The notes under the pieces: generated by a model
Databases searched by the model: none
Told to the model about the DNA's origin: nothing
Seen by the model: only the letters and a program-made list of their open reading frames with translations
Made by a program: the position numbers and the translations under genes
In this document: piece after piece, positions 1 through 61,640 of the stretch
Numbering within the stretch: position 1 is the first letter of the stretch
Layout of the letters: each line of letters opens with the position of its first letter
Source of the DNA: Eledone cirrhosa
Taxonomy: Eukaryota
Assembly (NCBI GenBank): GCA_964016885.1
Contig: OZ024745.1
Location: forward strand, 63,798,001-63,862,000
DNA: 64,000 nucleotides
Reading direction: 5' to 3'

Positions 1-319
1 ACGATTGATTACTCTTTCATTGCATTTATTGATAGGTGACGCGCGTTTCGCCACTGATCAGCTCAAGGTTTGATCTGTATCGATACTACCCGACGCAATA
101 ATCGGCTGCTCGACGGATCCTTTTAAAATGCTATAAGAAAATGAAATACATGCTATGTGGTAAAGTCAGAGTTTCAAGAGTTTCCGTCTATCGCACACGT
201 TTGCGTAGCAATAGAGACAAAAGACATAACGCCAATAGATTACTTGGAACCACTATGACACATACGCCTGACAAAAACACACACAAACTACCACCCAACC
301 ACAAAAACCTCACTAAACA

Positions 320-1060
320 CCGCAGAAACCGAAGTAGACCTGTCACATGGTATAACGCCCCGTATACTAGACACGTCGCCACTAACATACTGGGAACCTT
401 CTTCAGGGCTCTCGAACACATAAATACCACAAACTCTTCAATAGACACACTGTAAAATTCTCTTTCTCCACAGCACCAAATCTAGGCCACACAATAGCAC
501 ACACTAATAGGGCAAAAATACGAAAACACATGGTTGCTCCACAACAAACCACCACCACAACCCAGAACGAAACCACACACACAACACAACACAACAACCC
601 ACACACCAGACCCACACCACATGACACCAACCGTCAACGTGCCACCACACCGGTTACACCCAACTGCAACTGCAAAAAAAACGGGCCGAATGCCTACTAA
701 ACGGGGAGTGCCTCGTTAAATATATTGTTTACCGGTGTGATGTCACAGCCGGCAATAAAGAGTACTCATATATAGGTGCGACATCCACTACGTTTAAGGA
801 GCGCTGGAATAACCACAGAAGCTCCTTCAAACATAGACTGAAACGACCCCAAACCAGACTGGCCGATTTGATCTGGGACCTAAATGACAGGAATATTGAA
901 CCCCAGATCTCGTAGTCAGTGAAAAGACGCGTGGCACAACTCCCCAGTGGCAGAAACCACAGCAGATTATGCCTGGTTGAGGCGGCGGAAATAATTAAAT
1001 TAAAATCCGCCATAAACTATAGGTCGGACATAATTGTCAATTGCAGACACACCAGGCTGA
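320..1060 (+). pseudogene. Frameshifted PLE linker + GIY-YIG endonuclease
   Basis: Pieces read VTWYNAPYTRHVATNILG..HKLFNRHTVKFSFS..CNC..CLLNGECL..IVYRCDV..YIGATSTTFKERWNNHRSSF..LCLVEAAEI..VNCRH, a typical PLE C-terminus. Stops and frameshifts are present. Confidence 0.85.
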
Positions 1061-3027
1061 ACACCTTTTCCGCACAAACATTCGGGGGAGGGCAACGCAC
1101 TAACCATGACCCACCATAATAATAACCACCTCTGCCCCGTATCACCATCGCCCATCTCAGCGAATTTATTAATTTTATTTTATTTTATCTTATTTTATTG
1201 TATTGCATGTAACCATTTGTAAGCCCGTATTTTGTATATCTTGCCGCATACATCACCCCCACCAAAAATCACACTAACCATGACCCAGCATAATAATAAC
1301 CACCTCTGGCCCGTCTCACCATCGCCCATCTCAGCGAATTTATTTTATTGTACTGCATGTGACCATTTCTAAGCCCGTATTTTGTATATCATGCCGCATA
1401 CATCACCCCCACCAAAAATCACATCGCCATACACCCCTCATCCTTGCAACATTGTGTTCGATCGGTCTTCTATGATAGGTTTTACCTTACAATCCATAGT
1501 AACATCGGATCTTGTAAATACAATGTCTATCATATCACACCATCGCCACCACCACCACCACACCACACATCGTCATATGTCTACCATACACATCCGCAAC
1601 CTTATCCCCCATGTTCCCTCTGTCTACCCTAACCTACAACTCCACGCTAAATTCGACCCTCTAAATGTACTGTCGCACACACCACCACCGCCACCACTAG
1701 ATACATCCACATACATCATTAACATCATCAGCACATATCATCCCTCACTCCCAGATCGACTGTATTATACCCCCCCCCCCGGCTGCCTTACCCTGTAACA
1801 TACCGTAACTTCTGATCATGTAATCATCTTGTCGAACATATCACCCCAGCACCACCACCACCACCATGACCACAACACACATCGCCATACGTCCATAAAC
1901 TCTTCTCCCCCGCGTTCCCTATGTCACCTTTTAACCTGTAACCCATCGCACTATTCGATCCTGTATATTTTTGTCGCTCACAACTCCACCACCACAAGAC
2001 ACAACACCATACTTCATCAACACCGCCAACACATACCTCCCCTCCAGAACCAACGCAAGTGTGTGTGTCTGTGTGTAAGTATTTTTTACATATACGAGCG
2101 TATATGTAAAATATGCGTGCGTGTACGCATATATAGGTGTGCACATATATATATATATATATATATATATGTATATAGGTAAATCTGTGTGTATGTGTAT
2201 ATGTGAGCGTATATGGGCATGTATATGTATGTGTCTGTGTATATGTGTATATATATGTGTGTATACGTGTGTGTGTGTGTGTGTGTGTGTTTGTGTATGT
2301 TTATGTATACGTGTGTGTGTGCGTGTATGTGCGCATATCCGTATGTGTGTATGAGTGTATGTATGTGTATGTATATATGTATAACACCTTCTCCATTGCC
2401 TCTCACCATCCCTCCATCTTTGTCCTTCGCCACCCCCACCGATACTCCTCCACTCTCCCTATATGTGTCCGCATGCGCGCATGCACATACATGTGTGTAT
2501 ATATACATATGGCTGTATAAGTGTGTGTGTGGATATGTGTGGGCGAGGATGTGCGTATGTGTTGTGTGCGTTTATACATAAATATATATGCGCATATATA
2601 CATATGTGTGTATACATATATACAACGTATTTGTCAGACGAAGAGCGTCTAGCTATGTATCTCCGTAAGGACTCGATACCACCAACACATCCACCACACC
2701 ACCACAAATGCCACTACCATAAACAACAACACCACACCCACACCCTCACGCACGACAACCCGTCTACCGACAACCCACTAACCTCTTGCCACAGCCCATC
2801 CCAGTAAGCGACCATAACCACCATCATATCATCACATCCACCCCTACATACACTACAGGCCAAGGCCAACCCACCACGACCACAAGAGCCCATCTCATCC
2901 ACCGACCGTCACCAACATCTCACCATCACATCCATCCCGACATACACTACAGGCCAGTACATCCCTTTGATCCCACCAAACAAAACAACTCATTTTGTCA
3001 AACTCTTGAAACTCTGACTTTACCACA

Positions 3028-59674: not shown

Positions 59675-59882
59675 AACATAGGTACATGGCCAACAATTTT
59701 GGTGGAATGAGAAAATCGATATTATCGACCTCAGTAATTGACTGCTCCTTTATTTTATCAAACTCGGAATGATGAAAGGCAGAATTGAATTTGTCAGGAT
59801 TTGAACTGAGAACGTAAAGAGCCGGAACAAACACTGTGGTGCACTTATCCGACTCACTAAAGACTATGCCAAGTCACCACCA
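59675..59882 (-). mobile_element. Old SINE copy (6.7-kb family)
   Basis: GATGAAAGGCAGAATTG..GGATTTGAACTGAGAACG. Confidence 0.6.
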
Positions 59883-61440
59883 TGCTCGTTCAATTAATAC
59901 TAAGAAGAAATGTTTTCTAATTGCCGTTTCAATCCGCATTGACAATATATATATAAGAAATGAGGAAATGAGTTATATATAAAGATTTAGAGATAGATAT
60001 AACCCCGATATAGATGAGGAAATGAAAAAAACAACTGCTACAATAATAAAACTGATTTCTAATCTAGGTACAATGCTGTTGAGGTGGAATGATCGATTAT
60101 TATTGTTTCTCCAACACTTTATTGGCAGTATTTTGTCCGGACAAGATTGGCTGGAAAGTGAATCGACCCTGCTGAGACTTGGAATACACAGGACTGAACC
60201 GAACTAAGGGCAGCTTAATAAATACCGTAAGGTTTTTTGTCCAATACTCTATCGTATTTTCTATCCCCAGCTATATTCATAAAAAAGGAAGTGTATATTG
60301 CGAGGTGTGTAATCTTTGTATGAAATAAAGTAAGACAACCCGATGGAACGATATTCCAATGAACCATCGTCCATAGAAAGAAATATCAGGGACGAATACC
60401 AAACTTAAGAAATATTCGGTGACTGCTCAATACAAATCAGACAGTAAACTGTTCAATTTAGAGACGTATCTTAGAATAAATCTCACACGCACATAGATAA
60501 ACAACACAGTGTACAAAACATAGACCATTGAACAATAACATTAATCTTAATGATTCTGTATATAGAACAGCAGAGGCACTACTGGTAACATCTATTTAAA
60601 ATGCTATTTCCATTGCCGTTTTGCCACCTGAAACCCAACCATATCGCATACAAAATATATAGCAATAAACAAACTACTCAATGTTCAAACACACCGAAGT
60701 GTCGAATATAATACTATAAAACAATAAAAGCCGAATCACATACTAAGGAATAAAATTCATTACACAAAATGTGACATGCATGTTGCAATGATATATGAAG
60801 CAAACAGTACTTGAACTCTGAAATCTCTATTTACACCCCTAATGAGAACTGTTACATCAGTTTATATACTCCCTAAACATATGCAGTTATGTATTCCACT
60901 AATAAAGAGCGACAACAACAAATTTAAGATGGAAATATAGAAAATAAAACTATTCAAATGAATACAGTAAACAGAATAAAGAGATTCATGTCTCCACCAA
61001 CCCGATCAACCGGTCTAACGAGCCAGAAATCTGACTATAACTTCTAGCATGCTCTCATGCATTGTATTTGGAGAACACTTTGACACATACGATGCATCCT
61101 GCTACAAAACCTCAGTAATAAAATCAAAATGTGGAAGCACAATATCAATACAACTAAATCCACATTATATCGTAAATACCGTAAAGGAAAATAAACATAA
61201 ACCTCACCCATGTATCGACAATAATTCTTTTTTTGTGTGTCAATTTATTATTTACACACCTGGCTACCATAAACACATACCAAACACTCGACAGAGTTAA
61301 TGTAGACCATCTAACATCGACACACTTTCACACATTAATGAACCAAATTCAATCTTGTCTTTAGAAACTTTAAAGTGTAATTATTATTTCTAATGGATGG
61401 ATTTACACGACAAAAACCAATATATATATATATATATATG

Positions 61441-61640
61441 TAATAGGAACCAGTAAGACCCCGACAGCTGAGCTCAAGCCGTTTTGACGGCTAATTCTCT
61501 CAGAATTAGCCGTCGAAACGGCTTGAGCTCAGCTGTCGGGGTCTTACTGGTTCCTATTACCCACTCTACTACCTCAAGTATTGAGTACTTTGGTGCGTTA
61601 TGGTCCACCTGGTTCCTTACCACACTTCCTTCGTTATATA
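61441..61640 (+). mobile_element. Short retro-insert in (TA)n with 5' palindrome (24-kb family)
   Basis: Palindrome 61441-61559 centred at ~61500. Confidence 0.75.

What the first reader, a model, noticed from the sequence alone, without database searches (positions are those of the whole stretch)
1..61640. A guild of HHR-bearing elements colonising (TA)n tracts with head-to-head inversions
Seen: about 20 HHR motifs from at least 8 families in 64 kb. Most sit in inserts bounded by (TA)n with inverted arms whose RNA 3' ends face outward (5476, 9421, 16577, 24041, 24380, 26376, 32711, 44730, 50101, 61441). PLE RT or GIY-YIG relics occur in similar settings (320, 8000, 28993). Known: PLEs carry minimal HHRs, prefer AT-rich targets and often have inverted terminal repeats. 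Inference: self-complementary (TA)n lets both cut ends prime, so PLE enzymes mass-produce palindromes and non-autonomous ribozyme repeats, potential sources of dsRNA or A-to-I editing substrates.
Basis: partly seen in the sequence, partly recalled or inferred. Interest (0 to 1): 0.7.

Follow-up and report, generated by a model that had tools for sequence, protein, structure and literature searches.

The report
Two-armed Penelope insertions in TA repeats
The back-to-back, ribozyme-like repeats are stumps of a known class of jumping gene (Penelope-like elements) plus a few short non-coding repeats that likely hitch-hike on them, and their lopsided arms suggest that one RNA is likely copied from two fixed start points onto the two ends of a cut in a TA repeat.

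Summary
Real, and mostly known biology. In 99 evenly spaced 10-kb genome samples, 82% of motifs have (TA)n within 200 nt on the 3' side (control 23%), and inverted partners face outward 82:7 (SINE control 36:39). Six window families trace to coding Penelope-like elements (five Hydra-type, one Neptune-type), including a young 3,531-nt element with open frames; three are non-coding 340-590-nt tandem units (retrozymes). Opposite-strand hammerhead pairs, head-to-head arms, one-sided tails, (TA)n targeting and the PLE origin of retrozymes are all in print. What I did not find in print is the strict rule: in the commonest family 28 of 28 pairs have one arm ending at a near site and one at a far site 79 nt apart; arms share lineage variants (74 of 75); some far arms stop at the near site. 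This favours two-site twin priming on one RNA. The (TA)n-complementarity and editing ideas are unsupported. This scan reported the same picture on other DNA of this genome.

The parts
1..183 (-). Family K short inverted arm (3' end lies beyond the window start); hammerhead-like motif with a non-canonical core
294..1074 (+). Family K Hydra-type linker and GIY-YIG relic (broken frames)
   Evidence: (PF01541, E 2e-4)
3027..5278 (+). Separate non-LTR retroelement nested in the family K 3' UTR; absent from the inverted arm, so inserted later
   Evidence: RVT_1
5279..5455 (+). Family K long-arm 3' end at the near site, abutting (TA)n
5477..5983 (.). Family B (non-coding unit) inverted insert: tail-only far arm (-), near arm (+) with a decayed hammerhead at 5714
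7738..7790 (-). Family H hammerhead (core 7776), single arm; link to the RT-like relic upstream not shown
9421..10715 (.). Family E: long near arm (-, 9421-10390) and short far arm (+, 10385-10715); two U3-A8 hammerheads (9510, 10518); Hydra-type ORF upstream in two longer copies
16125..16299 (-). Family F single arm, hammerhead with U4 replaced by A (16193)
16577..16754 (.). Family A (older subfamily) inverted pair, half-hammerheads only
24041..24264 (.). Family A inverted pair, near arm (-) and far arm (+), both cut off in helix II
24383..24532 (.). Family A pair with a tail-only far arm (-) that stops 7 nt past the near site
26049..26090 (-). Family G hammerhead (core 26076), weak helices I and III, unassigned
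26376..28121 (.). Family L non-coding 593-nt tandem unit in two inverted arms; three U3-A8 hammerheads with long helix II; 164-nt tail
28134..29478 (-). Family J Neptune-type PLE stump: CX4CxxC linker, GIY-YIG with CCHH, 3' UTR, two hammerhead copies (28733, 28414)
30432..31620 (+). Family F Hydra-type EN C-terminus, 3' UTR and hammerhead (31555), ending at the near site
31701..32400 (.). Exact inverted copy of the flank (31701-32140) joined to a young family M arm (32139-32400, +)
32624..33267 (.). Family C inverted pair, far arm (-) and near arm (+), hammerheads 32812 and 33161; Hydra-type ORF upstream in L037
33346..33525 (-). Family I single far arm with a decayed hammerhead (33515), unassigned
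44681..45343 (.). Family D non-coding unit of about 340 nt, inverted pair, hammerheads 44890 and 45194
49774..50032 (+). Family C single near arm, hammerhead 49930
50096..52764 (.). Family B array of 472-478-nt units with five hammerheads (-), plus a tail-only far arm (+, 52706-52764)
61441..61636 (.). Family A young inverted pair, half-hammerheads only; 99% like the 3' end of the 3,531-nt autonomous element

Best explanation
These inserts are 5'-truncated copies of coding Penelope-like elements (Hydra- and Neptune-type motifs) plus non-coding hammerhead tandem units that likely borrow their enzymes, and each two-armed insert likely forms when the enzyme cuts both strands of a (TA)n tract and copies one RNA from two fixed start sites. 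Shown: family membership, two fixed end sites per family, one arm at each site, shared variants between arms, microhomology at the joint, truncation inside helix II. Inferred: a dimeric RT/GIY-YIG protein holds one uncleaved RNA; one DNA end is extended from the near site and the other from the far site; the far RT either stops where the near cDNA begins (tail-only arm) or displaces it; both often stall in hammerhead helix II; the two cDNAs are joined through 1-7 nt of microhomology. The hammerhead is a passenger here, since arms run through its cleavage site. Odds: about 0.95 for the identity, about 0.6 for the one-RNA two-site mechanism.
For: Identity: long copies of family A run into an RT + linker + GIY-YIG frame; 150 of 150 scored places match that RT piece at 98-100% with no stop; a tandem array has period 3,531 and a 717-aa ORF with all Hydra motifs (PMC8557442 section 11). 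Families C, E, F, K have Hydra-type coding sequence upstream, J Neptune-type. B, D, L are head-to-tail units without such coding sequence but with the same ends. Mechanism: 28 of 28 classifiable non-tandem family A pairs (30 found) are near+far, p 4e-9 against independent choice; 14 of 14 resolvable ORF-selected inserts likewise (19 stretches, partly the same loci). Arms agree at 74 of 75 lineage-diagnostic sites against 334 of 1,785 across inserts. The near arm reaches further 5' in 10 of 28 pairs, so neither arm contains the other. 6 of 59 far arms stop 3-8 nt past the near site, 6 of the 8 that end short of the helix II hotspot. 14 of 17 joints overlap by 1-7 nt. A bulged hairpin follows 7 of 12 start sites within 5-9 nt, background 0.5%. 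In vitro, PAc cuts and extends both strands from two internal sites, and is predicted to be a dimer (PMC11167929).
Against: No experiment on these elements. Shared variants fit two RNAs from one source locus, or later gene conversion, as well as one molecule. PAc showed no difference in start site between strands in vitro. The rule has exceptions: family I had both arms at the near site in 3 of 8 loci (two are duplicates; symmetric query), one sample family was symmetric in 3 of 3 pairs, family C had 1 far+far of 7. 74 of 163 motifs have no inverted partner. Tail-only arms could be later deletions of one palindrome arm. B and D lack the hairpin, and no autonomous partner was identified for B, D or L.
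Confidence: 0.62

Rival explanations
1. One reading: self-complementary (TA)n lets both cut ends anneal to and prime on the element RNA, and this is what produces the palindromes.
For: Both cut ends of a (TA)n tract do read the same. Alternating T/A runs of >=3 nt touch 7 of 11 measured start sites against 11-37% background. 58 of 63 family A ends not cut by a sample edge reach (TA)n within about 15 nt (my reading).
Against: It predicts no near/far exclusion, yet 28 of 28 pairs show it. PAc initiates without homology (PMC11167929). Chlamys elements have inverted and tailed inserts with (CA)n and (C)n as common targets (PMC8557442). Ends next to (TA)n are ambiguous by a few bases, which inflates the runs, and three sites were placed a few bases off.
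Confidence: 0.15
2. Self-priming or fold-back: one strand (an antisense RNA, as proposed in PMC3846280, or the first cDNA) folds back and is copied to make the second arm.
For: Some joints are symmetric or palindromic (9 of 28 within 5 nt; L164). In tandem inserts the short arm could be copied from an internal unit. One exact fold-back of flanking DNA exists in the window (31181-32140).
Against: In non-tandem inserts such as L166 and L105 the near arm is longer at its 5' end by about 180 and 1,070 nt while only the other arm has the tail. A fold-back gives no reason to stop at a fixed near site. No second TA-centred fold-back of complex sequence was found around 2,592 tracts.
Confidence: 0.12
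3. Two RNA molecules from the same source locus, one per subunit, each primed at a site chosen by protein geometry.
For: Explains shared variants and read-through of the far arm without strand displacement (51 of 59 far arms run 39 nt or more past the near site).
Against: Does not predict far arms that stop at the near site and needs an extra rule for near/far exclusion.
Confidence: 0.1
4. The palindromes are sequencing or assembly artefacts.
For: Young arms are 99-100% identical; raw long reads were not available; contig laying could not confirm single joints.
Against: Ends are family-specific and fixed, arms of older inserts differ by 5-20%, a later element sits in one arm only, and a SINE control shows no orientation bias.
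Confidence: 0.01

Closest known systems
Hydra clade of C-terminal EN+ PLEs (Craig et al. 2021, PMC8557442; abstract, sections 3 and 11, passages read; supplement listed, not opened)
   Same: RW(K/R), DKT, CxCX5C linker, no CCHH, CxxC and CxH near the C-terminus, hammerhead, (TA)n insertion, inverted 5'-truncated arm, tail on one end.
   Different: Described as a small group, generally under 3 kb, with 30-40-nt tails for PLEs. Here a 3,531-nt unit, tails of about 40-165 nt, several families and an estimated 1.5e5 arms for family A alone (49 in 990 kb).
Poseidon PAc of Anolis (Frangieh et al. 2024, PMC11167929; parts 1-2 of 4 read)
   Same: Both strands cut and extended; two internal RT start sites define the tail; uncleaved RNA is the template.
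   Different: Its start sites lie inside the ORF and showed no strand difference in vitro; here both lie upstream of the first ATG (92 nt past the far site) and are used one per DNA end.
Minimal PLE hammerheads (Cervera and de la Pena 2014, PMC4209133; part 1 of 4 read)
   Same: Long helix II, short helix I, extra base before helix II, U3-A8 variant, massive copy number, and pairs 100-700 bp apart on opposite strands ascribed to truncated PLEs.
   Different: In the part read, no (TA)n or arm-end analysis. Helix II here reaches about 55-60 nt, and one abundant family has A in place of U4.
Animal non-LTR retrozymes (PMC7229834, passages; bioRxiv 10.64898/2026.07.22.740005, parts 1-3 of 5, supplements closed)
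   Same: Non-coding tandem units with one type I hammerhead each; proposed to be mobilised by PLEs.
   Different: Their evidence is co-occurrence and pLTR likeness; here B, D and L carry the PLE insertion footprint itself. Circular RNA was not tested here.
LINE-1 twin priming (recalled, not read)
   Same: Two DNA ends prime on one RNA and the cDNAs join by microhomology.
   Different: In L1 the second site is variable and the arms do not overlap; here both sites are fixed near the 3' end and most far arms read through, giving an inverted duplication.

Membership tests
Hydra-clade PLE (family A) | Single ORF with RT and C-terminal GIY-YIG | tested here: met
   717-aa ORF; nearest Atlas clusters at 0.97-0.99 carry PLE-type HTH_animal, GIY-YIG or RVT_1; Pfam and PDB gave nothing for the full protein
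Hydra-clade PLE (family A) | RWK-type motif, DKT, CxCX5C linker, no CCHH, flanking CxxC and CxH | tested here: met
   Read from the protein against section 11 of PMC8557442; RWR in place of RWK
Hydra-clade PLE (family A) | Hammerhead near the 3' end and (TA)n insertion | tested here: met
   Three-way junction in the minimum-energy fold, z-score not favourable; flanks
Hydra-clade PLE (family A) | Placement in the RT phylogeny | not tested
   No reference RT set was fetched
Neptune-clade PLE (family J) | C-terminal EN with CX2-5CxxC linker and CCHH | tested here: met
   Motifs read in L253, L255, L260; no tree, so Nematis is not formally excluded
Non-LTR retrozyme (families B, D, L) | Head-to-tail non-coding unit with one type I hammerhead per unit | tested here: met
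   Units of about 440-480, 340 and 593 nt
Non-LTR retrozyme (families B, D, L) | Self-cleavage and circular RNA | not testable with these tools
   No RNA holder listed
Type I hammerhead ribozyme (family A copies in the window) | Complete core on one strand | tested here: not met
   All four window inserts stop 5' inside helix II or before it
MITE-like DNA element | Fixed structure with terminal inverted repeats copied as a unit | tested here: not met
   Joint differs between loci and arms range from tens of bases to 14 kb

The most novel reading that the evidence does not exclude
Penelope-like elements integrate by obligate two-site twin priming: one protein dimer copies a single RNA from two hairpin-marked start sites, one per DNA end, and this one step explains the head-to-head arms, the one-sided tail and the spread of retrozymes; this genome holds several hundred thousand footprints of it.
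Probability: 0.5. Interest if true: 0.7.

Novelty: new member of a known kind. Interest (0 to 1): 0.47.

Why it matters
How PLEs make inverted arms and one-sided tails is named as unsolved in PMC8557442. The near/far rule, the shared variants and the tail-only arms turn it into a barcode experiment, and a young element with open frames is a substrate for it. The retrozyme-type units with PLE footprints add insertion-site evidence to a link so far argued from co-occurrence. For annotation: most of these motifs are dead stumps, not working ribozymes.

Tried and rejected
Rfam missed all motifs. A strict descriptor found 1 motif because it allowed no extra base before helix II; a 45-nt cap on helix II missed families A and L. 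A tail-only genome query returned nothing because common words are skipped. One search was biased to the query's joint, so its 30 loci were not used for the pair rule. In one search the rows for B and L and the pooled test were spoiled by microsatellite matches and are void. Distance to the nearest (TA)n misleads for B and J, which carry internal T/A runs. A chimeric PLE-LINE at 1-5455 was rejected: none of the other scored places continued into the hammerhead arm. No RNA holder listed. Laying contigs of four runs (two samples, one study) could not test single joints. Empty-site search had no power to show whether tracts pre-exist. Target duplications with non-TA letters were seen clearly in 1 of 52 inserts. 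Folding z-scores of single motifs were unremarkable except family L. Private variants in 39 family A loci showed 22 A>G against 36 T>C (one diverged locus left out).
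Full report
Setting. The window is bases 63,798,001-63,862,000 of contig 5 of a 3.0-Gb animal genome. It is repeat DNA; the abundant short repeat used as control is called a SINE from recall, and its likeness to octopod SINEs is also recalled, not tested.

1. The motifs. Rfam reports no hammerhead. A tolerant type I descriptor gives 24 hits at score 14 or more, against 0.4 in shuffles and 0 in the reversed window. After dropping two likely chance hits and adding two weaker copies of a well-scoring family there are 24 complete motifs in 10 families (B-J, L), and three more families with half or irregular motifs (A, K, M). 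All ten listed sites are inverted inserts with 3' ends outward, but four hold only the GAAA...GUC half, and 15 of the 24 complete motifs sit in outward-facing pairs.

2. Genome-wide test. I fetched 99 evenly spaced 10-kb stretches. They hold 163 motifs (bootstrap 126-204; 5 in shuffled, 18 in reversed sequence), which extrapolates to roughly 4-5 x 10^5 in the genome. With the shorter helix II setting, 82% of 131 motifs have (TA)>=5 within 200 nt on the 3' side, 35% on the 5' side, 23% for random positions; families B and J inflate this a little through internal T/A runs. Of 163 motifs, 82 have an outward-facing inverted partner, 7 an inward one and 74 none; for 164 SINE copies the numbers are 36, 39 and 89 (Fisher p 2e-10; both members of a pair count).

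3. What the families are. Long copies of family A show the missing half: a U3-A8 core and a helix II of about 55 nt, preceded by a 1.1-kb UTR and an RT plus GIY-YIG frame. All 150 scored places, of 42,141 candidates, match that RT piece at 98-100% without stops. A tandem array gives a 3,531-nt unit with a 717-aa ORF bearing the motifs that define the Hydra clade (PMC8557442). So the four family A sites are stumps of a young autonomous element; 38 of 49 arms in the sample stop in helix II and 5 reach the core. C, E, F and K also have Hydra-type coding sequence upstream, J has Neptune-type motifs. B, D and L are head-to-tail units of about 470, 340 and 593 nt without such coding sequence: retrozyme-type elements. 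G, H, I and M remain unassigned; the RT-like relic near 8000 was not joined to hammerhead H elsewhere.

4. Anatomy of an insert. Each family has two fixed 3' ends, near and far, 79 nt apart in A and about 40-165 nt in others. In A, 28 of 28 classifiable non-tandem pairs have one arm at each (30 pairs found), as do 14 of 14 resolvable ORF-selected inserts (overlapping set). B, E and L follow the rule in the pairs I could read; I, C and one sample family give exceptions. The joint differs from locus to locus, with 1-7 nt of overlap in 14 of 17 long inserts, one blunt joint and two of about 30 extra bases. Arms agree at 74 of 75 lineage-diagnostic sites against 19% between inserts. The near arm is the longer at its 5' end in 10 of 28 pairs, so neither arm is simply a copy of the other. 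Six of 59 far arms stop 3-8 nt past the near site; 24383, 5477 and 52706 are window examples in A and B. Following a lead from earlier notes of this scan, I found a bulged hairpin 5-9 nt after 7 of 12 start sites (both sites of A and L; near sites of C, E, I), background 0.5%, and not in B, D or M.

5. Mechanism. Shown are the ends, the exclusion, the shared variants, the microhomology and the stall site. Inferred is that the protein cuts both strands of (TA)n and extends each DNA end on one uncleaved RNA, one from each site; the far RT stops at or displaces the near cDNA; the two cDNAs are then joined. This fits PAc, which extends both strands from two internal sites on uncleaved RNA (PMC11167929), but there the strands did not differ in start site. 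Two RNAs from one locus, gene conversion and fold-back (PMC3846280) are not fully excluded. Self-complementarity of (TA)n is not needed on published evidence, though short T/A runs at start sites may help. Editing was not testable; private variants show no A>G excess.

6. What is known. Opposite-strand hammerhead pairs and the U3-A8 core in truncated PLEs (PMC4209133), head-to-head arms with a tail on one (PMC3846280; PMC8557442), (TA)n targeting by Hydra and PLE origin of retrozymes (PMC7229834; bioRxiv 10.64898/2026.07.22.740005) are in print. Searches for Penelope with twin priming, hammerhead with octopus or cephalopod, Penelope-Hydra-cephalopod and recent pLTR mechanism papers returned no paper, by listing, on the exclusion rule or on this expansion; subscription journals and Repbase were not searched. 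Earlier AI notes on other windows of this genome reached the same reading; they are not independent support.

7. Verdict. A real, genome-wide feature made of new members of known kinds. The interest lies in the arm rule as a test of an open mechanism, not in the guild itself. Interest 0.47.

Noticed in passing
window 31181-32400: Exact 480-nt palindrome centred in a (TA)n tract, 3' ends inward, joined by 2 nt to a young family M arm: a copy of the flank seems to stand in for the second arm. No second case around 2,592 sampled tracts; artefact not excluded.
   Followed up: partly
window 16193, 31555, 31766; 11 motifs in the sample: Family F carries A in place of U4 in the core throughout, yet is abundant and linked to a Hydra-type ORF; it would be predicted not to cleave.
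   Followed up: partly
window 32139-32400; L237: Family M: young element with places spaced 3,451 nt apart and in inverted pairs, a 41-nt tail and an irregular hammerhead-like motif that my scan missed.
   Followed up: partly
window 3027-5278: Non-LTR element with RVT_1 nested in a PLE 3' UTR, thousands of candidates in the genome; CRE-like by recalled motifs only.
   Followed up: partly
window about 11070-15500: Broken Helitron (Helitron_like_N, PIF1) starting right after a (TA)n tract, with a 69-nt minisatellite.
   Followed up: partly
L028:1440-1760: Family A insert with a duplicated 17-nt interruption of the (TA)n tract on both sides, a long target duplication; flanking tracts of young inserts are long (median sum 62 nt), so insertion may lengthen its own target.
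   Followed up: partly
window 20100-22500 and 35584-36486: Two DNA-transposon-like relics with terminal inverted repeats; a Spin-type zinc finger hit in the first, a weak HTH hit in the second.
   Followed up: no
L164:4983-5013 and L105:4806-4839: Joints with about 30 extra bases: a small hairpin in one, tandem repeats of the arm end in the other, suggesting repeated re-priming.
   Followed up: no
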